Shown: positions 18,179 to 38,531, counted from the first letter of the stretch. The stretch: 64,000 bases of DNA from Arenicellales bacterium (GCA_965206345.1 OZ242211.1:1018758-1082757); one strand, 5' to 3'. Notes: generated by a model from the letters alone, not told the origin. Made by a program: numbers and translations.

Positions 18179-19213
18179 TCAGCACGACTCTGCCCCAACA
18201 GCGTCCGATTTATGCTTTTCTTTCTTGTTGTTGACCATGCGAAGCCAATTGCGATAAAGAAGTTCAGCATGGGCACGCCACGTGTTGTCAATCAGTGGAA
18301 GGATTTCTGACTCCGGCAGTTCTGGCAAGTCCAAACCCTGCTCCAAAGCAAGCAGAAAAATAGCGCGGTATTTTTCAAGGCTCTTCTTCGCTGAGTCCGG
18401 TAAATAATTGAGTGGATAATCAGGGTAGTTGACCCGCTCACCTAGTCTGAAGCGATTAATTTCACGCTTGTATTCTTTTAACAAGCTGACTGAATCGTAT
18501 TCCGGGTGCCCCTGTAGAAACACCCACCTGCCTCTGTCTTCGCTCACTGCGATACCAAAGTCCGCATCCGAACTGGAGGCAAGAATCTGAACGCCATGTG
18601 GTTCCATCTGCTCGGCGGTCATTTCAAAAACATGTGATCGCGGTTCTACATACTGCTCAGGCATATCCGCCATTAGCGGATGGTTGATTTGGGTCACCCG
18701 ATGAGAGAATACACCCCACCGCTTGTCAGGCTGGCAGCGGGTTCGTTCAATTCCATGAAATATCTTCAGAATGGCATGCGATGCCAGACACGAACACAAA
18801 ATTGTCGGAACATGCACATTCGCCCAGTGCACCACCTCTTCAAAGTAAGGCCAGAACTTCTCCGCAGTGATTTCAAAGTTTCCTGGATTTGCACCAGTCA
18901 GAACCAAGCCATCCAGTTTGATTTTCGTGATCTCGTCAAACGAAATATAGGCCTTGGAAACATACTCCAGTGTATCGGCAGATCTTGGCAGGCCTTCGAT
19001 ACTAAAGGGATGGATCTGAATGACGAGGTCTCCAGCACCGGCCGCTAGCAGTCTGAAAAACTGACGCTCAGTTGCCCTAAGCGCCCGGTCTGGCATCATA
19101 TTTAAAAAGCCAATTTGAAGCGGTGATGAATCTTCATTCTGCTCCGTAATTTCAATGTTCTCGCGGACAAGACGCTTCCAGGAGTCTAGATCGCGATAGC
19201 GCAACAAAGGCAT
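18179..19213 (-). CDS. metA: Homoserine O-acyl (succinyl/acetyl) transferase, MetA family
   Basis: IGFLNMMPDRALRATERQFFRLL, GLVLTGANP and the ILCSCLASHA region match the MetA/HTS fold pattern. Confidence 0.8.
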   Translation of the reverse strand: MPLLRYRDLDSWKRLVRENIEITEQNEDSSPLQIGFLNMMPDRALRATERQFFRLLAAGAGDLVIQIHPFSIEGLPRSADTLEYVSKAYISFDEITKIKLDGLVLTGANPGNFEITAEKFWPYFEEVVHWANVHVPTILCSCLASHAILKIFHGIERTRCQPDKRWGVFSHRVTQINHPLMADMPEQYVEPRSHVFEMTAEQMEPHGVQILASSSDADFGIAVSEDRGRWVFLQGHPEYDSVSLLKEYKREINRFRLGERVNYPDYPLNYLPDSAKKSLEKYRAIFLLALEQGLDLPELPESEILPLIDNTWRAHAELLYRNWLRMVNNKKEKHKSDAVGAESC

Positions 19214-19246
19214 GAGTTAAATTTGAATTTTCAGCCTGAGATTTAT

Positions 19247-20086
19247 TCAGTCGTCCAAGACGATGCAGACAAGATCAACAAAATCCTGTTCATCACGCAC
19301 ACTATCCAGCTCATCCGCTGCAATGGTGTAGCCGTACTTTTTGGCTATGCGTTCGTACTTTGGTCGCCGGGAGTGCACCAGCTTCGGAAAAATCCATCGA
19401 ACGAACTGATTGGGGTCAATTTGGTCGGATTGCGTCAACTGATTTATCTCCAAATACTCAGCCAACTGCACTTCAAGAAAATTCGCTTCATAGTAGAGCG
19501 GTTTTGGATGCTTAATTTGTCGTTCAATTATTTCAGTCTCAAACTCCAGACTCACGTCAATCAACAAAATTAGCGTCTGTCGAGCGAGTTCTTCAAGTAC
19601 GCGCTCGTCGCCCAATTCACACAAACTACCGCTTGAATCATTGACAAAATGGTCATAGCCGTATATCGACTTTGCTTTGCTGACAAACTCTCTGACGTCG
19701 TACATGGACTGGATTTCGGCCTCGCAGTGCAAGTCTTGACGCCGCTTGAACTCTTCCAGCGGCAATCCTCCTTTCTCACCGTCACCCAGCATTCCGACGA
19801 ATTTGGATAGTAGGTCCAAATTATCAAATGTCATGGCACTTTGGATGCTAATGGAATCGCTGCGCAACAAATCCCTGAGAAAACCAATTTGCATCGCCTT
19901 TTCCTTGATGTTATCAATGATTGGTTCATCCAGGTAACGAGTGCCAATGCGATAGTCTGCAGAATAGTGAAACCAGGAAGTATTGGGGAGTTTGCGCGCC
20001 AGTGTTGTCTTTCCGCAACCCGACATACCCATCAAGGTTACGATCTTGCGCTCGGCACTTCTAAACTGTTTTTTAGTTAATCTCAT
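19247..20086 (-). CDS. P-loop NTPase/kinase-like protein of unknown function
   Basis: Walker A GMSGCGKTT near the N-terminus; I recognise no other motif. It lies 33 nt upstream of metA on the same strand. Confidence 0.55.
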   Translation of the reverse strand: MRLTKKQFRSAERKIVTLMGMSGCGKTTLARKLPNTSWFHYSADYRIGTRYLDEPIIDNIKEKAMQIGFLRDLLRSDSISIQSAMTFDNLDLLSKFVGMLGDGEKGGLPLEEFKRRQDLHCEAEIQSMYDVREFVSKAKSIYGYDHFVNDSSGSLCELGDERVLEELARQTLILLIDVSLEFETEIIERQIKHPKPLYYEANFLEVQLAEYLEINQLTQSDQIDPNQFVRWIFPKLVHSRRPKYERIAKKYGYTIAADELDSVRDEQDFVDLVCIVLDD

Positions 20087-32681: not shown

Positions 32682-33027
32682 TTGAGTAAGAAGCTGGTTT
32701 GAGGTTTGGTTGAATAGATAACTCGTTCAATTAACACACAGTTCTGCAAATACAGAGTACCCATTACCCCACGAAATTTTCTAGTTGAGCGCAAAATCTG
32801 GCTGCCAGGTGCAGAATCTCTAATTTTCACCCCTGCTGCATAGGGAAACACCATTTGAGTGATATCACAATCAATTGACTGGATATTCAATGATGGTTTT
32901 ATTGATTATGACCATTTTGCCGTCAACTATTCAGACAATTGCGAAATCATTAACTAGAGTTCGATAGTAGCATATAATTCATCCATTGAGTAATTTTACT
33001 AAAGAGAATAATTTTACTTCCGTAACT

Positions 33028-34311
33028 ATGTTTGAACGGGAACAGAAAACTACATTAGTTCAGCGTTTGAGAGAACCACCTCGGTCTCTGATTATTGTAA
33101 ATGGCCCGCGTCAATGCGGCAAAACAACGGTTTTACTTCAAGCACTCAAGGCAAGCCATGTTCAACATCTTTATGTTGCTGTCGATCGAATGGAAGTTAA
33201 CCCCGATTTGTCAATTGAGAACATTGATTCAATTCGCGCACCGGATGCTCCGGAAGATTATTTTGCGGAACCTCGTGTCAATCAAGCCGATGCAGAGTGG
33301 CTGATCAGGGTATGGCAAGATGCGAGGGCAAGGGCTGATCAATCCGAATCTGGCTATATCTTTGCACTGGACGAAATTCAAAAAGTTCCGAACTGGTCGG
33401 AAATCGTAAAAGGACTGTGGGATAAGGACCAAATGGAAGGTCGAAAAATGCATGTAGTGCTGCTAGGGTCTGCACCACTACTGATGCAACAGGGATTGAA
33501 CGAGAGTCTCGCTGGCAGATTTGAGACCATCCGACTTAATCACTGGTCGTTCTCTGAAATGGCTGCAGCATTTGACTTTGACTTGGATAAGTTTGTATTC
33601 TTCGGGGGTTATCCAAAATCCGCATCATTAATTGACAACGAGGATCGTTGGCGAAATTACATTCTTGACGCTTTAGTCAATACGAGCATAGAACGAGATA
33701 TTTTGGCTCTGCAACGCATCGATAAGCCGGTCCTGCTGAAACGTCTATTTGAATTGGGCTCAACTTTCTCTGGACAAGAACTTTCCTATACCAAGATGCT
33801 CGGTTCGCTTCAGGATGCTGGCAACACGACTACTTTGGCGCGTTATCTCGACTTGATGTCGCAGGTGAAACTAATTTCTGGCCTTTCTAAATTTTCATTG
33901 AACTTATTGCGAAGAGGTTCCTCTCCAAAGTTAATTGTGCACAACACTGCTTTAATGTCTGCGAGTTCTGGATATACGTTCGAAGAAGCGAAATCTGATC
34001 GCACATACTGGGGGAGACTCGTGGAAAGTGCGGTAGGAGCGCATCTGTTGAATTCCCTCAGTCCCCGTGCTGAACTTAGTTACTGGCGGAAAGATAATTT
34101 TGAAGTGGATTTCGTAGTCGCTCGTGCCAACCACCTCACTGCTATTGAAGTAAAAAGCGGTAGGCAACGGTTTCGCACGAAAGGCATTGACAAATTCGAA
34201 GAGAATTTCTCAAGTCGTACACGCTCTATCAATCGCTTGGGAATCGGTGGAAGTGGAACTGAGCTTGCAGAGTTTCTTGCAACTCCAGCTTCAGAACAGG
34301 TTGAAAGTTGA
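33028..34311 (+). CDS. AAA+ ATPase of the COG1373 type (AAA_14 + DUF4143) with C-terminal PD-(D/E)xK-like motif; first gene of the candidate defence pair
   Basis: Walker A GPRQCGKTT, Walker B FALDEIQ, LLGSAP, SLAGRF. C-terminal NFEVDFVVARANHLTAIEVKSG (D at 34108-10, E at 34147-49, K at 34153-55). ATG 33028 gives the same N-terminal spacing to the P-loop as the paralog at 12234; the track starts at TTG 32986. Confidence 0.8.
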   Translation: MFEREQKTTLVQRLREPPRSLIIVNGPRQCGKTTVLLQALKASHVQHLYVAVDRMEVNPDLSIENIDSIRAPDAPEDYFAEPRVNQADAEWLIRVWQDARARADQSESGYIFALDEIQKVPNWSEIVKGLWDKDQMEGRKMHVVLLGSAPLLMQQGLNESLAGRFETIRLNHWSFSEMAAAFDFDLDKFVFFGGYPKSASLIDNEDRWRNYILDALVNTSIERDILALQRIDKPVLLKRLFELGSTFSGQELSYTKMLGSLQDAGNTTTLARYLDLMSQVKLISGLSKFSLNLLRRGSSPKLIVHNTALMSASSGYTFEEAKSDRTYWGRLVESAVGAHLLNSLSPRAELSYWRKDNFEVDFVVARANHLTAIEVKSGRQRFRTKGIDKFEENFSSRTRSINRLGIGGSGTELAEFLATPASEQVES

Positions 34312-37300
34312 TGACCTATTTTGCTCCCCGTACCTGTCATTATTTTAGCAAAGGTGGCCGTTTATCGGAATCTCATCAACCATTCGAGGAAAGTAAAGAA
34401 TTCACTTCGACCGACGCATCGTTACAGAAAAACAAAGAAGCACCTTCTAACGAATCTCTTTCGCTTGAACAATTGCGTGAAGTTGAAGCATTTGTTTTGC
34501 TTGGACCGCCTGGAGCAGGGAAAACAGAAATATTCAAAAAAGAAGGGGGAAATTCGAATTGTCATTGCACAACAGTTCGCAAATTTGTTAATCTCAATCA
34601 AACTGGAATAAATTCCAAAACGACGTTATTTATCGATGCGCTCGACGAACAACGGCTTGAATTTCAGGACGGGAGAACAGCACTCGATGAAGTATGTCGG
34701 AAACTTCAGATGCTGGGCAACCCTCGCTTTCGTTTGTCCTGTCGAGAAGCAGATTGGTATGGAACCAGTGATCGCACGCACCTGAAATCTGTTTCTCCAG
34801 ATGGTCAAATCAGTGTATATCGCCTCGACCCTTTAACAAATGAGCAAGTGCTCCAATTGTTAGCTAGTTTGAAAATTGAACATCCTGAAGCGTTTGTAGA
34901 ATCAGTTATTAACAATCAACTTGCTGAATTGCTTCACAACCCACATACACTAAAAATGCTGGTTGAAGCATTTCGTGAATTAGGCGAACAGAAGTTTCCT
35001 CGAACACGCACCGAGACGTTCGAATTGGCCTGTCTGAATTTACTGAAAGATCCTGATAGAAAAAGGCAACAGGCATATCAAACCCTCGAAATTAATCTCA
35101 AAGATCTTTTGGACAAAGCAGGAAAGCTGTGCGCCATTCAACTTTTGTCCGGTAAGCAAGGTTACACTCAGGTTGGCGGAATAGCTGGTCCTGATTTCCC
35201 TGACTTGAATCATATCTTGTCAGGCGATGGAACGGAAGTGCATCGGATAGTACGCTCCAATTTATTTCACACACCGTCAGAAAACCGTGTTGTCCCCATT
35301 CACCGGCACGTTGCAGAGTTTCTCGCTGGGCGTTATCTTTGCAAACTAATTGATGAAGGACTGCTTTTGAGCCGAGTGATGTCACTCATTATTGGCTACG
35401 ATGATTCGGTCGTTTCCGATCTGCGAGGTCTTTCAGCATGGCTTGCGGCGCATTGCGTGTCTCGAAGAAAACAAATTATGGAGTGGGACCCCTTGGGTAC
35501 ATTGCTGTATGGCGATGTCAAGTCTTTCTCGATCGACGAAAAAATTTATCTGCTGAAGTTACTGCCTCAGAATCTAGGGGAAGATCTTTGGCACGTGCGA
35601 AAGCATGGAATAGATGTGCGTTTTGGCGACATTGCTACACAAGATTCAGTCAACGAAATTCGAAGGATTTTTTGGGAATCTGTGGAAGCTAACACTAAGT
35701 CATCGTTATGTTGGATTGTTAGCGCAATGCTTCGATATAGCGAGCCACTTCAAGGGCTATCCGAGTTTCTGCTTGCGATTCTAAAACATGATTCAATATC
35801 GTCAAGTATCAAGACTAACGCAATTGATGCGATTGAGCACCAATGTGGCGGCATTACAAATATTTATGCTGAACTGAAAGGATTGTTTGACGATGTATAC
35901 GATGGAAATATTCGCGATCCAGATTGTGAACTGACAAATGGAATATTGATCAAACTGTACCCAGAATATTTAAAAGCGTCTGAATTATTGAAGTACTTCC
36001 GAATGCCAGATGTGGCGAGTATCTCGATTGATTACCATTACTTCTGGCGTAAATATGTGCCCGAAAATTCAACCGCGGAGCAATTGGCTTGTCTTCTTGA
36101 CCAGCTTACACAGAAAAAAGAAAAAATTAGGTTGCCAGTGCGGTTTGCAAACCGTTGGCCTTTCTCCTGGCGAAACTTGGCTCGAATTTGGCTACGAAAA
36201 TACTTGGACAAGTTTGAGGGGGAGGTTGATCGTTATCGACTGTTCGATTGGTTGGGGTTTGCTTCCGGTGTCGATGATTGGGAGGAATACTCCGTTCCCA
36301 ATGGGGAAGATTCAACTTTCATTAGATCTTGGATCGAAAAACACCCTGATTTACACAAATGGCTACTAGAACGGGGGTTGTCAATTTGCATTGAAAATCA
36401 GAATTGTAATGGGGGACATGCCTTCGGGCAGTGCGTAAATTCACAGTGGAAAAGACAGTTTGGAGCTCAAAAACCAGAAAACTATGGACTCTGGTGCATT
36501 GAAAAAGGGATTCAGCTGTCTAGTGAAGATGCGAAAACTTGGCTCGTACACGAAGCAGCAAACTGGATCGGCGATTTCGACCGAAGTCAAGGAGATACCA
36601 CGAATAAAGTCAATAGGCTTTTTCAGCAAAGCCCTGAGCTAAAGAAAGAGTTCGATGAAGCACAAGGCCAACTCGAATCAGAAAGACAACAATTCTTGGA
36701 ACAGTCGCGTAAACAGGGTGATCAACAGCGTCAGAAAGAATGGCAGGAATTTCTTAAACCATACGAAACTGCATTACGAGAAAATCGAGTTGAAATTCAA
36801 TTGCTTTCGAAGTTGGCGTCGGTCTATCTTGGTGGCTTCCTAGATGTTTACGGCGATAAACCCGAGAACAGAGTGTACAACTTAGTGGGAGATGACCACA
36901 ACCTAGTGAATGCTGTGTTGCAAGGTTTGCGTAATTCAATCAATCGAATTGATGTTCCAAGCGACGACGAAGTCATAAGTCTTCATTGTGAAAATAAAAG
37001 GCATTTTCTCGTCTTTCCCATTCTTGCAGGAATGATTGAACTGACTGCCAATGTGCACGAATACGCAATCAACCTGGATGAAGAAAAGTTACGCCTGTTA
37101 ATTGCCCTCCATTACACGGAACCATACTGGAGAACACCTAAAGATATCGATACACTTTCCGAACCGAAATTTCGATGGTTCTCTGGATTGTTAACAAACC
37201 ATCCAGAGTTGGTGGCCACGGTACTGTTTAAATTTGCCAGTGCCCAATTTCAAAAGGGTAAAGGCGGAATTGAAGGCTTATATGAACTCGCATATTCGGA

Positions 37301-38531
37301 AGATCATAAACAGCTGGCACAACTCGTATCACTTCGATTGCTAAAAACATTTCCTATACGTTGCCGGGAGTCGCAGTTTCGAGACTTGCGCAATTTGCTG
37401 ACTTCAGCACTGCTTCTGCACAATGAAAGGAACAGGTTAACAGAGTTGATCGAAAAGAAACTTTGTCGCAAGAGTATGAATGCCGGCCAGAGGGTTTTTT
37501 GGTTATTCGCTGGTATGCTAATTTCATCCAACAATTTTGTAGACAGACTGAATGCACACGTTGTCAGTTACAAAAATGGACCTGTTGATCTTGAGCGTTG
37601 CCTTGTCGAATTTTTCTATGGTTCGACTAAGTTGTTTGGATGTCTTAAACCTGAGGGGATCAAGCTGCTAGTTCGACACGTTGGTCCAATTTCTCCGACT
37701 GGCTTTGACGGTTTGGATACTCACACTCACCAAAATCGATCATCATCGCGAAGAATGAGTGCTGGAGATTGTGTGCGAGAATTAATTGAACAACTAGCCT
37801 CTAACTCGTCTGTGAACGCGACTACAGCACTTCAAGAACTAACTGAAGACGACAATCTGATTGGGTGGAGAGAAATGTTGTTGAATGCGGCGAATTTACA
37901 GCAAAGAAAGAGAAGGGAGGCAGAATATCGCCATCCGAGCCTCGAACAAGTTTGTGAAACGCTGCGAAATTGCAAACCAGCCAATCCTGCCGATCTAGCG
38001 GCTTTAGTCGAGGATAAGTTACGACAAATCGCAAACGAAATTCGTAATGGACCAGCTTCAGGCTGGCGACAGTATTGGAATGTCGATAGCCACAAACATC
38101 CAATCGATCCAAGACACGAGGATGTATGCCGGGATTCGCTTATGTTGGACTTACGCAACCACATTCGTTCTTTAGGAATTGATGTTCAGCCGGAGGGACA
38201 ATATGCCGACGGTAAACGATCAGATATTCGCGTTTGTTTCAACAACTTAAACGTACCTGTCGAACTTAAGAAAAGTGACCATAGAGACGTTTGGAGCGCA
38301 ATTCTTAATCAGTTGGCAAAGAAATACACCCGTGACCCTGGTGCAGATGGATACGGAATTTACGGTGTTTTCTGGTTCGGTTATTCGGAATATTCGAGAC
38401 CCAAACCAGGAGTCAGTGGATTACCCAAAAGTCCCGAGGATTTTGAGAGGAGTCTCAAGGAAAGTTTGCCCGTGGAATTGCAAAGAAAAATTTCAGTATG
38501 TGTAATCGATGTTTCTCAGCCCGAAGAATAG
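34311..38531 (+). CDS. Large (1,406 aa) NACHT-like STAND P-loop NTPase with ~1,000-aa uncharacterised helical region and C-terminal PD-(D/E)xK nuclease-like motif
   Basis: Walker A GPPGAGKT (34503-34526), Walker B LFIDALDE (34626-34649), then RFRLSCRE, YRLDPLTNEQV and NPHTLKML in NACHT-like order. C-terminus reads HEDVCRDSLMLDL...GKRSDIRVCFNNLNVPVELKK (D at 38223-25, E at 38262-64, K at 38268-70). The ATG shares one nt with the upstream TGA (TGATG). Confidence 0.75.
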   Translation: MTYFAPRTCHYFSKGGRLSESHQPFEESKEFTSTDASLQKNKEAPSNESLSLEQLREVEAFVLLGPPGAGKTEIFKKEGGNSNCHCTTVRKFVNLNQTGINSKTTLFIDALDEQRLEFQDGRTALDEVCRKLQMLGNPRFRLSCREADWYGTSDRTHLKSVSPDGQISVYRLDPLTNEQVLQLLASLKIEHPEAFVESVINNQLAELLHNPHTLKMLVEAFRELGEQKFPRTRTETFELACLNLLKDPDRKRQQAYQTLEINLKDLLDKAGKLCAIQLLSGKQGYTQVGGIAGPDFPDLNHILSGDGTEVHRIVRSNLFHTPSENRVVPIHRHVAEFLAGRYLCKLIDEGLLLSRVMSLIIGYDDSVVSDLRGLSAWLAAHCVSRRKQIMEWDPLGTLLYGDVKSFSIDEKIYLLKLLPQNLGEDLWHVRKHGIDVRFGDIATQDSVNEIRRIFWESVEANTKSSLCWIVSAMLRYSEPLQGLSEFLLAILKHDSISSSIKTNAIDAIEHQCGGITNIYAELKGLFDDVYDGNIRDPDCELTNGILIKLYPEYLKASELLKYFRMPDVASISIDYHYFWRKYVPENSTAEQLACLLDQLTQKKEKIRLPVRFANRWPFSWRNLARIWLRKYLDKFEGEVDRYRLFDWLGFASGVDDWEEYSVPNGEDSTFIRSWIEKHPDLHKWLLERGLSICIENQNCNGGHAFGQCVNSQWKRQFGAQKPENYGLWCIEKGIQLSSEDAKTWLVHEAANWIGDFDRSQGDTTNKVNRLFQQSPELKKEFDEAQGQLESERQQFLEQSRKQGDQQRQKEWQEFLKPYETALRENRVEIQLLSKLASVYLGGFLDVYGDKPENRVYNLVGDDHNLVNAVLQGLRNSINRIDVPSDDEVISLHCENKRHFLVFPILAGMIELTANVHEYAINLDEEKLRLLIALHYTEPYWRTPKDIDTLSEPKFRWFSGLLTNHPELVATVLFKFASAQFQKGKGGIEGLYELAYSEDHKQLAQLVSLRLLKTFPIRCRESQFRDLRNLLTSALLLHNERNRLTELIEKKLCRKSMNAGQRVFWLFAGMLISSNNFVDRLNAHVVSYKNGPVDLERCLVEFFYGSTKLFGCLKPEGIKLLVRHVGPISPTGFDGLDTHTHQNRSSSRRMSAGDCVRELIEQLASNSSVNATTALQELTEDDNLIGWREMLLNAANLQQRKRREAEYRHPSLEQVCETLRNCKPANPADLAALVEDKLRQIANEIRNGPASGWRQYWNVDSHKHPIDPRHEDVCRDSLMLDLRNHIRSLGIDVQPEGQYADGKRSDIRVCFNNLNVPVELKKSDHRDVWSAILNQLAKKYTRDPGADGYGIYGVFWFGYSEYSRPKPGVSGLPKSPEDFERSLKESLPVELQRKISVCVIDVSQPEE

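What the first reader, a model, noticed from the sequence alone, without database searches (positions are those of the whole stretch)
33028..38531. Translationally coupled AAA+/DUF4143 ATPase plus 1,406-aa NACHT-like STAND NTPase with a C-terminal nuclease motif: candidate unnamed anti-phage module
**Seen in sequence**
- Two same-strand genes whose stop and start share a nucleotide (TGATG at 34309-34313). This argues for co-translation.
- Gene 1 carries GPRQCGKTT, LDEI and SLAGR AAA+ motifs, plus a C-terminal EVD...IEVK motif.
- Gene 2 starts almost directly with a P-loop NTPase. Its motif series is GPPGAGKT, LFIDALDE, RFRLSCRE, YRLDPL and NPHTLKML. That order matches what I know for NACHT/STAND NTPases.
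- The NTPase is followed by ~1,000 aa with no motif I recognise, and then a D...ELK restriction-endonuclease-like motif.

**Established knowledge**
- STAND NTPases fused to nuclease effectors and long helical sensor regions are the logic of the Avs/bNACHT antiviral proteins.
- COG1373/DUF4143 ATPases are uncharacterised but carry a REase-like C-terminus.

**Inference**
- The pair is a conflict/defence system.
- I cannot match it to any named system I know. The NTPase-first, nuclease-last layout and the obligate-looking ATPase partner differ from Avs1-4 as I remember them.
Basis: partly seen in the sequence, partly recalled or inferred. Interest (0 to 1): 0.85.

Follow-up and report, generated by a model that had tools for sequence, protein, structure and literature searches.

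The report
Erebus-like NACHT defence gene with ATPase partner
The two overlapping genes are real and look like an anti-phage module, but the large protein belongs to the already named Erebus (EruA)/Avs10 family of bacterial NLR-like immune sensors. What appears to be new is its tightly conserved, co-translated partner, an ATPase-nuclease of the untested PDC-S01/DUF4143 type.

Summary
**Observation:** confirmed. Gene 1 (33028-34311, 427 aa) and gene 2 (34311-38531, 1,406 aa) share one base (TGATG).

**Gene 1:**
- It carries Pfam AAA_14 plus DUF4143.
- It matches the PADLOC candidate PDC-S01 over its full length (E 1e-155).

**Gene 2:**
- It is not an unnamed family. It matches NCBIfam 'NACHT domain-containing antiphage protein EruA' over its full length (852 bits, below the 1000-bit equivalog cutoff) and Pfam DUF8371.
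- EruA is Erebus, grouped in 2026 as Avs10, a family activated by phage major capsid protein.
- An AlphaFold2 model of residues 1-560 matches NOD2, NLRC4 and NLRP3. The middle is an alpha-solenoid.
- The C-terminal domain has invariant E...D...ExK residues and an alpha-beta-beta-beta-alpha-beta topology. No significant profile or fold hit confirms a nuclease.

**The pairing:**
- In 79 related genome loci from about 14 lineages, only these two genes are conserved.
- Stop and start codons overlap in 76 of 78 loci.
- Pairwise identities of the two proteins co-vary (r = 0.90).
- Cut-off-passing EruA in Pseudomonas, Burkholderia and Bradyrhizobium, and a Luteimonas relative, lack the partner. Five alphaproteobacterial EruA genes have a degenerate DUF4143 gene directly downstream instead.

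**Verdict:** a new two-gene variant of a known defence family. Interest is moderate.

The parts
32950..32978 (+). Promoter-like site (TTAACT-17-TATAAT) about 50 nt upstream of gene 1. Candidate operon promoter.
   Evidence: 10 of 12 consensus matches. The number of such sites in the region is not above the shuffled expectation, so this is weak. No promoter-like site lies between the two genes.
33028..34311 (+). Gene 1: 427-aa ATPase-nuclease of the PDC-S01 type (AAA_14 plus DUF4143).
   Evidence: PADLOC model PDLC04791 E 1.3e-155, residues 1-423 against model 1-392 of 395. Homologues align from residue 1-2, which supports ATG 33028 as the start.
33085..33561 (+). Gene 1 AAA_14 P-loop ATPase domain (aa 20-178): Walker A GPRQCGKTT, Walker B LDEIQ, SLAGR arginine.
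   Evidence: Pfam PF13173 E 6.9e-24. G31 and D115 are invariant. K32, T33, E116 and R164 are at least 90% conserved in 28 homologues.
33691..34161 (+). Gene 1 DUF4143 domain (aa 222-378) with a PD-(D/E)xK-type motif, EVD(361)...IE(374)VK(376).
   Evidence: Pfam PF13635 E 1.3e-28. D361 and E374 are invariant and K376 is at least 90% conserved. DUF4143/COG1373 is listed in the PD-(D/E)XK superfamily survey PMC3424549.
34309..34313 (+). TGATG stop/start overlap, the translational-coupling junction.
   Evidence: The same kind of junction (ATGA in 58 loci, TGATG or TAATG in 18) is present in 76 of 78 related loci.
34311..38531 (+). Gene 2: 1,406-aa Erebus (EruA)/Avs10-like NACHT protein (Pfam DUF8371).
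   Evidence: NCBIfam NF058535 EruA, 852.1 bits (cutoff 1000), residues 39-1402 against model 4-1318 of 1318. HyoA scores 184.5 bits. PF28130 is DUF8371.
34311..34487 (+). Gene 2 N-terminal short strand (aa 8-12; R7, T8 and C9 at least 90% conserved) followed by a low-confidence linker (aa 14-46).
   Evidence: AlphaFold2 model and alignment. Stand-alone homologues carry a similar N-terminal 'RRV.V' peptide, so this is not specific to the partnered clade.
34488..35600 (+). Gene 2 NACHT NTPase module (about aa 60-430: nucleotide-binding domain, helical domain, winged-helix region).
   Evidence: AlphaFold2 model of residues 1-560: pLDDT 80.2, pTM 0.81. Foldseek top hits are NOD2 (E 7.6e-9), NLRC4, NLRP3 and NAIP5. 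This is among the best-conserved regions of the protein: 0.48 identity for aa 60-230 and 0.52 for aa 331-430.
35601..38060 (+). Gene 2 all-helical alpha-solenoid (about aa 431-1250), the presumed sensor.
   Evidence: AlphaFold2 model of residues 561-1406: pLDDT 85.1, all helices. Only weak HEAT/ARM-type hits, E above 3e-3. This is the least conserved part, 0.17-0.35 identity in several 50-aa windows.
38061..38528 (+). Gene 2 C-terminal alpha/beta domain (aa 1251-1406), the presumed PD-(D/E)xK nuclease effector: E1270, D1305, E1318-x-K1320, Q1334, Y1339.
   Evidence: Predicted alpha-beta-beta-beta-alpha-beta order with D at the start of beta 2 and ExK in beta 3. E1270, D1305, K1320, Q1334 and Y1339 are invariant in 32 sequences including stand-alone EruA, and E1318 is at least 90% conserved. 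This is the best-conserved region, 0.55-0.64 identity. There is no significant database hit. A weak PADLOC LmuA match occurs in 17 of 32 members, best E 2e-4.

Best explanation
The pair is a horizontally mobile, two-gene anti-phage module built around an Erebus/Avs10-type bacterial NLR.

**Gene 2, by homology to Erebus/Avs10 (inferred)**
- Its variable alpha-solenoid binds a phage protein. Published Avs10 members are activated by the HK97-fold major capsid protein.
- Binding releases the NACHT module to bind ATP and oligomerise.
- Oligomerisation brings the C-terminal D...ExK domains together into an active DNase. This kills the infected cell or destroys phage DNA.

**Gene 1 (role inferred)**
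- It is an ATPase fused to a winged-helix/PD-(D/E)xK-like DUF4143 domain, and all its catalytic motifs are intact.
- It is made from the same mRNA by coupled translation.
- It most likely acts with the NACHT protein as an accessory co-effector or co-sensor, for example a second, DNA-directed ATP-dependent nuclease recruited or licensed by the activated sensor. Acting as an unrelated neighbour is less likely.

**Shown here:** family membership, the NACHT fold, the domain order, and the conservation, coupling and co-evolution of the pair.

**Inferred:** the trigger, the oligomerisation, the nuclease activity and the partner's role.
For: **Family of gene 2**
- Gene 2 matches the EruA model over its full length.
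- EruA is Erebus, grouped as Avs10, which is activated by the major capsid protein. Effector mutations abolished cell death in the Avs representatives tested in that study.
- The N-terminal model matches NACHT domains of known NLRs.
- The solenoid is the least conserved part, while the NTPase and C-terminal domains are the most conserved.
- The C-terminal E, D and K catalytic-type residues are invariant, and E1318 of the ExK motif at least 90% conserved, with a fitting predicted topology.

**Family of gene 1**
- Gene 1 is PDC-S01 with AAA_14 plus DUF4143 and conserved Walker A, Walker B and D...ExK motifs.

**The pairing**
- A gene 1 homologue sits directly upstream in nearly all of the 79 loci. 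Identity is 52-57%, higher than the 35-40% of gene 2.
- Stop and start overlap in 76 of 78 loci.
- No third gene is conserved. Any other family is shared by at most 6 of 79 loci.
- Pairwise identities of the two proteins correlate at r = 0.90, with 0 of 999 Mantel permutations reaching this value.
- The pair is shared at 70-90% (gene 2) and 91-94% (gene 1) identity between MAGs assigned to different phyla.
- EruA is linked a second time to the DUF4143 family, in the opposite gene order, in Paracoccus, Sulfitobacter, Leisingera, Pseudophaeobacter and Methylorubrum.

**Defence-type neighbours of homologues**
- TIR and toxin-antitoxin genes.
- RES and integrase genes.
- SIR2 and ParE/RelB genes.
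- A PglX-like methyltransferase.
Against: - There is no experiment on this clade. Gene 2 and all sampled partnered homologues score 852-976 bits, below NCBIfam's 1000-bit EruA cutoff.
- The nuclease fold of the C-terminus was not confirmed by any significant profile or structure hit.
- In the window the flanks are housekeeping genes.
- EruA proteins that pass the cutoff exist without any DUF4143 neighbour in Pseudomonas aeruginosa, Burkholderia and Bradyrhizobium. A Luteimonas relative, not scored against the model, also lacks one. PDC-S01 genes occur alone on many plasmids. The partner is therefore not needed by the family as a whole.
- In the close relative L001, gene 1 is split by an insertion sequence while gene 2 stays intact.
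- No partner-specific insertion or docking domain was found in gene 2.
Confidence: 0.6

Rival explanations
1. Two independent single-gene defence systems (a PDC-S01 ATPase-nuclease and an Erebus-like NACHT protein) travel together as a mini-island. They share an operon for expression only and have no physical or functional interaction.
For: - Each gene type exists alone elsewhere: stand-alone EruA and stand-alone PDC-S01 at about 45% identity on Thermus and Coxiella plasmids.
- PDC-S01 is listed by PADLOC as a single-gene candidate.
- L001 carries an IS-disrupted gene 1 with an intact gene 2.
- No partner-specific feature was found in gene 2.
Against: - The overlapping stop and start are kept in 76 of 78 loci across about 14 lineages.
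- The two proteins co-vary tightly.
- No locus in the sampled clade lacks the partner, apart from truncated or degraded copies.
- An independent second association of EruA with a DUF4143 protein has a degenerate Walker A, so that protein is unlikely to be a self-sufficient ATPase system.
Confidence: 0.2
2. Gene 1 is a safeguard or negative regulator (antitoxin-like) that keeps the NACHT nuclease inactive until infection, or the reverse.
For: - Coupled translation fixes the stoichiometry, as in many toxin-antitoxin and abortive-infection pairs.
- Gene 1 is more conserved than gene 2.
Against: - In L001 gene 1 is interrupted by a transposase-bearing insertion while the gene 2 homologue is full length.
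- Stand-alone EruA genes are tolerated in many genomes.
- Gene 1 keeps the full ATPase and D...ExK catalytic motifs. That is not expected for a simple inhibitor.
Confidence: 0.1
3. The pair is not an immune system. It is a selfish or DNA-maintenance module, for example a mobile-element helper or a repair ATPase-nuclease pair.
For: - The window flanks are housekeeping genes.
- PDC-S01 has no experimental validation.
- The clade falls below the EruA equivalog cutoff.
Against: - Full-length homology to an experimentally named antiphage family.
- No integrase or transposase is conserved with the pair.
- The variable middle region with conserved enzymatic ends is typical of immune sensors.
- Homologues have defence-type neighbours.
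Confidence: 0.05

Closest known systems
Erebus (EruA; NCBIfam NF058535), grouped with Hypnos (HyoA) and bNACHT64 as Avs10 (van den Berg et al. 2024 as cited in PMC13581612; Nature 2026, PMC13581612)
   Same: - Full-length collinear homology (residues 39-1402 against model 4-1318).
- The same order: short N-terminal peptide, NACHT, alpha-solenoid, C-terminal E...D...ExK domain.
- The same invariant C-terminal residues in stand-alone EruA proteins.
- The NACHT fold.
   Different: - It scores 852 bits against a 1000-bit cutoff. Identity to plasmid EruA-type proteins is about 25-32%.
- It always comes with a translationally coupled upstream AAA_14-DUF4143 gene. This gene is absent next to the P. 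aeruginosa (1478 bits), Burkholderia (1326 bits) and Bradyrhizobium EruA genes, and next to the unscored Luteimonas relative.
- The trigger is untested.
PADLOC candidate PDC-S01 (AAA_14 plus DUF4143, COG1373)
   Same: Gene 1 matches model PDLC04791 end to end (E 1.3e-155) and has both Pfam domains.
   Different: - PDC-S01 is catalogued as a single-gene candidate with validation pending (PMC12988326).
- Here it is an obligate-looking operon partner of a NACHT protein.
Alphaproteobacterial EruA plus downstream DUF4143 gene (Paracoccus, Sulfitobacter, Leisingera, Pseudophaeobacter, Methylorubrum)
   Same: An EruA-family NACHT gene is directly adjacent to, and in two cases overlaps by 4 nt with, a DUF4143-family gene that keeps D...ExK.
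   Different: - The gene order is reversed.
- The partner is only about 24% identical to gene 1 in the DUF4143 region.
- It gets no AAA_14 hit, and in Pseudophaeobacter it has a degenerate Walker A (PRAGRTS) and Walker B (DAIQ).
Avs1-4 (AVAST) and most experimentally studied bNACHT proteins
   Same: STAND NTPase plus repeat sensor plus nuclease-type effector logic. Activation by direct binding of a conserved phage protein is the family paradigm.
   Different: - In those proteins the effector is usually N-terminal and the sensor C-terminal. Here the NTPase is first and the effector last.
- I saw no ATPase partner gene described for them in the texts I could read.
Eukaryotic sensor-helper NLR pairs (NAIP-NLRC4; plant sensor NLR-NRC)
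   Same: A receptor with a large ligand-binding region is paired with a second NTPase-containing protein. NOD2, NLRC4 and NAIP5 are structural matches of gene 2.
   Different: - Gene 1 is not a NACHT protein. The profile comparison aligns only the Walker A region (probability 12%).
- This is an analogy only.

Membership tests
Erebus / EruA (NCBIfam NF058535) | Whole-protein score at or above the curated equivalog cutoff (1000 bits) | tested here: not met
   852.1 bits. Seven partnered homologues score 855-976 bits. P. aeruginosa 1477.9, Burkholderia 1326, Paracoccus 1321 and Bradyrhizobium 1035 bits all pass.
Erebus / EruA (NCBIfam NF058535) | Full-length collinear homology to the model (same domain order) | tested here: met
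   E 1.1e-255, one stretch, residues 39-1402 against model 4-1318 of 1318. Pfam DUF8371 is precomputed on the identical protein.
Erebus / EruA (NCBIfam NF058535) | Works as a single gene (NCBIfam has no EruB; the best-scoring P. aeruginosa locus has no conserved partner) | tested here: not met
   A conserved coupled upstream partner is present in 76 of 78 loci of this clade. P. aeruginosa neighbours have no NCBIfam or Pfam hit and no DUF4143. The original Erebus paper was not readable here.
Avs10 (Erebus/Hypnos/bNACHT64) | Activated by HK97-fold major capsid protein; confers phage defence | not testable with these tools
   Taken from the literature only. It needs co-expression or plaque assays, or complex modelling.
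NACHT-clade STAND NTPases (bacterial NLR-related proteins) | NACHT-type NTPase fold (nucleotide-binding domain, helical domain, winged helix) with Walker A, Walker B and a sensor arginine | tested here: met
   Foldseek hits to NOD2 (E 7.6e-9), NLRC4, NLRP3 and NAIP5, TM about 0.45-0.5. GxxGxGK, D109, D112, E113 and R141 are invariant. The Pfam NACHT model PF05729 itself gives no hit at E up to 0.1.
NACHT-clade STAND NTPases (bacterial NLR-related proteins) | Repeat or solenoid sensor region | tested here: met
   The AlphaFold2 model (pLDDT 85) is all-helical with weak HEAT/ARM-type matches. This is the least conserved region.
PD-(D/E)xK nuclease superfamily (C-terminal domain of gene 2) | alpha-beta-beta-beta-alpha-beta core with D at beta 2 and (D/E)xK in beta 3 | tested here: met
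   The predicted secondary-structure order fits, with D1305 at the start of a strand and E1318-x-K1320 in the next. E1270, D1305 and K1320 are invariant and E1318 is at least 90% conserved. This rests on a model, not a solved structure.
PD-(D/E)xK nuclease superfamily (C-terminal domain of gene 2) | Significant profile or fold similarity to a known member | tested here: inconclusive
   - No Pfam hit (Mrr_cat in 1 of 32 members at E 0.2).
- No PDB sequence hit.
- Foldseek against PDB was dominated by the solenoid.
- Foldseek against viral structures gave only non-significant endonuclease hits.
- PADLOC LmuA was weak, in 17 of 32 members.
- hhalign against DUF4143 lines up the D...ExK motifs but with probability 1.2%.
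PDC-S01 (PADLOC) / COG1373 | Match to a PDC-S01 HMM, with an AAA_14 ATPase followed by DUF4143 | tested here: met
   PDLC04791 E 1.3e-155 over full length. PF13173 and PF13635 both score above their cutoffs.
PDC-S01 (PADLOC) / COG1373 | Anti-phage activity | not testable with these tools
   The literature states that validation is pending for most such candidates.
Avs1-4 (AVAST) | N-terminal effector, central STAND NTPase, C-terminal TPR sensor | tested here: not met
   The NTPase starts at about residue 60. The conserved enzymatic-type domain is at the extreme C-terminus.

The most novel reading that the evidence does not exclude
The DUF4143 ATPase is a dedicated helper of the Erebus/Avs10-type sensor, making this a bacterial sensor-helper pair. 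The phage-bound NACHT protein would recruit or activate the ATPase-nuclease, possibly in a hetero-oligomer, so that the partner carries out or directs DNA cleavage.

This would give the first mechanistic role to PDC-S01/COG1373. That family is reported as the fourth most common predicted defence gene family in prokaryotes and is still uncharacterised. The reading fits the two independent EruA-DUF4143 gene arrangements. One of them has a partner with a dead ATPase motif, which could only work as a subunit.
Probability: 0.25. Interest if true: 0.7.

Novelty: new variant of a known kind. Interest (0 to 1): 0.5.

Why it matters
- Erebus/Avs10 proteins are treated as single-protein pattern-recognition receptors. 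A large clade that has kept a co-translated ATPase-nuclease partner through repeated horizontal transfer suggests an accessory layer of bacterial NLR signalling that has not been described in the literature I could read.
- It offers an experimental handle on DUF4143/PDC-S01, a very abundant family with no known function. The NACHT partner supplies a likely trigger (a phage structural protein) and a read-out.
- The spread of the pair across about 14 lineages of uncultured marine MAGs shows that these communities exchange it as a unit. Many of these MAGs carry names typical of sponge or coral symbionts; that habitat link is my own knowledge and was not tested here.

Tried and rejected
**Literature**
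- Searches for EruA, HyoA and DUF8371 found nothing relevant.
- The link came only after guessing that Eru and Hyo stand for Erebus and Hypnos.
- The original Erebus paper (PubMed id 39094584) is not held, and the Nature paper has no supplements held.

**Sequence and structure searches that gave nothing useful**
- Pfam-A gives no hit for gene 2. A profile against PDB sequences gives only spurious hits.
- Searching the C-terminal model against PDB and viral structures did not isolate the nuclease domain.
- Profile comparisons of gene 2's C-terminus against gene 1, and of gene 1 against gene 2's NTPase, were not significant.
- blastn of the Pantoea homologue against E. coli genomes, meant to find an annotated EruA locus, found no match.

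**Ideas rejected**
- The N-terminal 'PRTC' peptide is not a partner-specific docking motif. Stand-alone homologues have an equivalent 'RRV.V' peptide.
- A search for partner-clade-specific insertions in gene 2 found none of 5 or more residues.

**Look-ups that failed**
- The exact window protein P0001 and P0237 are not on record for a context look-up.

Full report
**1. The observation**

Two same-strand ORFs occupy 33028-34311 (427 aa from the ATG) and 34311-38531 (1,406 aa). The TGA of the first and the ATG of the second share base 34311.

**2. Gene 1**

- Pfam assigns AAA_14 (aa 20-178, E 6.9e-24) and DUF4143 (aa 222-378, E 1.3e-28).
- PADLOC-DB model PDLC04791 of the candidate system PDC-S01 matches end to end (E 1.3e-155).
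- PDC-S01 is a single-gene 'putative defence candidate' found by a guilt-by-embedding approach. It is described as an ATPase fused to a PD-(D/E)xK domain, very abundant in bacteria and archaea, with validation pending (PMC12988326).
- DUF4143/COG1373 is listed in the PD-(D/E)XK superfamily survey with function unknown (PMC3424549).
- Walker A (G31 invariant; K32, T33 at least 90%), Walker B (D115 invariant, E116), R164, and D361, E374 and K376 are conserved in 28 homologues, including distant paralogues. Both activities are therefore probably intact.

**3. Gene 2**

The local Pfam-A copy gives no hit. NCBIfam matches NF058535 'NACHT domain-containing antiphage protein EruA' over the whole length: 852.1 bits, E 1.1e-255, residues 39-1402 against model 4-1318 of 1318. 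That is below the curated 1000-bit cutoff. It also matches HyoA more weakly. The identical database protein carries PF28130, which is DUF8371.

EruA and HyoA are Erebus and Hypnos. A 2026 Nature paper and its preprint group Erebus, Hypnos and bNACHT64 as Avs10. They report that Avs10 is activated by, and is modelled to wrap around, the HK97-fold major capsid protein. They cite van den Berg et al. 2024 and Kibby et al. 2023.

Structure predictions:
- The AlphaFold2 model of residues 1-560 (pLDDT 80, pTM 0.81) has NOD2, NLRC4, NLRP3 and NAIP5 as its best PDB matches (E 7.6e-9 to 3e-4). The NACHT call is therefore supported by fold.
- Residues 561-1406 (pLDDT 85) are an all-helical solenoid with only weak HEAT/ARM-type matches. 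They end in an alpha/beta domain (aa ~1250-1406).
- In that domain the predicted order of elements is alpha-beta-beta-beta-alpha-beta. D1305 opens one strand and E1318-x-K1320 lies in the next.
- E1270, D1305, K1320, Q1334 and Y1339 are invariant, and E1318 nearly so, in 32 sequences that include stand-alone EruA proteins from cultured bacteria.

Conservation is highest in the NTPase, the winged-helix region and the C-terminal domain. It is lowest in the solenoid. That is the pattern expected for a sensor flanked by enzymatic modules.

The nuclease assignment remains an inference. Pfam, PDB-sequence, PDB-fold and viral-fold searches gave nothing significant. Only a weak PADLOC LmuA match recurs, in 17 of 32 members with best E 2e-4. 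A profile comparison with gene 1 lines up the two D...ExK motifs but without statistical support.

**4. The pairing**

A scan of one genome per species found at least 558 loci encoding relatives. The 79 closest loci come from MAGs labelled Gammaproteobacteria, Alphaproteobacteria, Binatia, Nitrospirales, Latescibacterota, Gemmatimonadota, Acidobacteriota, Dadabacteria, Nitrospinota, Spirochaetia, Thermodesulfobacteriota, Rhodothermales, Opitutales and others.

- In 78 usable loci a gene 1 homologue lies directly upstream on the same strand. Identity is 52-57%, higher than the 35-40% of gene 2. Two copies are degraded.
- The stop and start codons overlap in 76 of the 78 loci: ATGA in 58 and TGATG or TAATG in 18.
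- Clustering all flanking ORFs shows that nothing else is conserved. The next most common family occurs in 6 of 79 loci.
- Pairwise identities of the two proteins correlate at r = 0.90 over 2,485 pairs. None of 999 Mantel permutations reaches this value, and r is 0.81 among distant pairs.
- Some pairs from MAGs assigned to different phyla are 70-90% (gene 2) and 91-94% (gene 1) identical. Several of these sit on short contigs, so binning error is possible.
- Two genomes carry two divergent copies of the pair.

The pair therefore behaves as one horizontally transferred unit.

**5. Window context**

The flanks are housekeeping genes:
- Upstream: asparaginase II, arginase, beta-eliminating lyase, glutamate-cysteine ligase family 2 and an M23 peptidase.
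- Downstream: enoyl-CoA hydratase, a tRNA-editing domain protein, Lgt and a DsbH-like protein.

The pair is slightly GC-poorer than its surroundings (0.44 against 0.46-0.51). Two close relatives (about 90% nucleotide identity) carry it at the same site. A 57%-identical pair sits between different housekeeping genes. This is not a defence island, but it is a variable insertion.

**6. Is the partner part of Erebus?**

NCBIfam has no EruB-type hit for any neighbour tested.

| Group | Genomes | DUF4143 neighbour |
|---|---|---|
| EruA proteins that pass the cutoff | P. aeruginosa (1478 bits), Burkholderia ambifaria (1326 bits), Bradyrhizobium (1035 bits) | none |
| Close relative of Paracoccus EruA (43% identity; not scored against the model) | Luteimonas | none |
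| Sub-threshold plasmid relatives | Vibrio, Pantoea, Agrobacterium, Ralstonia | none |
| Alphaproteobacterial EruA genes (only Paracoccus was scored: 1321 bits) | Paracoccus, Sulfitobacter, Leisingera, Pseudophaeobacter, Methylorubrum | a 373-413-aa DUF4143 protein directly downstream |

Several of the genes without a partner sit beside TIR, RES, SIR2, Schlafen-like, toxin-antitoxin or integrase genes.

In Pseudophaeobacter and Methylorubrum the downstream DUF4143 gene overlaps EruA by 4 nt. The Pseudophaeobacter protein has degenerate Walker motifs but keeps D...ExK.

The EruA-DUF4143 link therefore exists in two gene orders and is absent from other branches. I found no mention of it in the texts I could read, and I could not read the original Erebus paper.

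**7. Mechanism**

The best-supported reading is an Erebus/Avs10-type receptor. Its solenoid binds a phage protein. NACHT-driven oligomerisation then activates the C-terminal nuclease-like domain. The co-translated ATPase-nuclease acts as an accessory subunit or co-effector.

Family, fold, anatomy and linkage are shown here. The trigger, the oligomerisation, the nuclease activity and the partner's role are inferred.

- The IS-disrupted gene 1 in relative L001, with an intact gene 2, argues against an antitoxin-like role. It is compatible with either an accessory or an independent role.
- No partner-specific insertion was found in gene 2.
- The ATPase domains of the two proteins are related only at the Walker A level.

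**8. Verdict**

The module is real and very probably a defence system, but it is not an unnamed kind. It is a two-gene variant of the Erebus/Avs10 family combined with the PADLOC candidate PDC-S01. The novelty class is 'new variant of a known kind'. The interest lies in the conserved partner, which could give DUF4143/PDC-S01 its first functional context.

Noticed in passing
L001:6530-9026 (Arenicellales MAG CBDCQQ010000005.1, syntenic with the window): The gene 1 homologue is split by a 2.48-kb insertion bounded by 21-nt inverted repeats. The insertion carries a 783-aa transposase (Pfam Transposase_29, E 1.7e-97). The gene 2 homologue downstream is intact. This is a natural gene 1 knock-out.
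   Followed up: yes
window:43672-48014: About 4.3 kb present in the window but absent from both close relatives L001 and L002. It encodes an ABC-transporter ATPase, an NMT1-like binding protein and an AsnC-type regulator. This is a metabolic indel unrelated to the finding.
   Followed up: partly
L085:9011-10132; L092:8014-9243; L094:8110-9255; L096:8011-9231; L097:7517-8758: In five alphaproteobacterial genomes EruA (Paracoccus 1321 bits; the other four not scored) is followed directly by a 373-413-aa DUF4143 protein, with a 4-nt overlap in two cases. The Pseudophaeobacter copy has a degenerate Walker A (PRAGRTS) but keeps D...ExK. This is a second, reversed EruA-DUF4143 arrangement.
   Followed up: partly
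L003 and L006 (both OZ250159.1); L001 and L020 (same MAG, CBDCQQ01): Two divergent copies of the whole gene pair occur in one genome. This looks like an expanded receptor repertoire.
   Followed up: no
L039/L040, L022/L024, L058/L068: The pair is 70-90% (gene 2) and 91-94% (gene 1) identical between MAGs assigned to different phyla: Spirochaetia/Thermodesulfobacteriota, Latescibacterota/Acidobacteriota and Latescibacterota/Nitrospinota. This is either recent cross-phylum transfer or mis-binned short contigs.
   Followed up: partly
L012:14254-18342 and three other loci: A 1,362-aa PglX/type IIG-like adenine methyltransferase lies directly downstream of the gene 2 homologue.
   Followed up: partly
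L088:10217-14204 (Pseudomonas aeruginosa): The best-scoring EruA gene is followed on the same strand by two large ORFs (864 and 482 aa) with no Pfam or NCBIfam hit, conserved in four assemblies. This may be another uncharacterised system.
   Followed up: partly
L087:1-311; L054:7429-8532; L038:6791-7786 and 19017-19799; L050:22396-23211: Additional, distant AAA_14/DUF4143 paralogues (about 23-25% identity to gene 1) lie within 10 kb of the pair in several genomes.
   Followed up: no
record titles (79 loci): Nearly all of the closest relatives come from uncultured marine MAGs: Candidatus Rariloculaceae, Binatia, Latescibacterota, Dadabacteria, Nitrospinota and Arenicellales, with isolate labels such as RHO, CAR, SB and Plut. 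From my own knowledge these are typical of sponge and coral microbiomes. The habitat was not verified with the tools.
   Followed up: no
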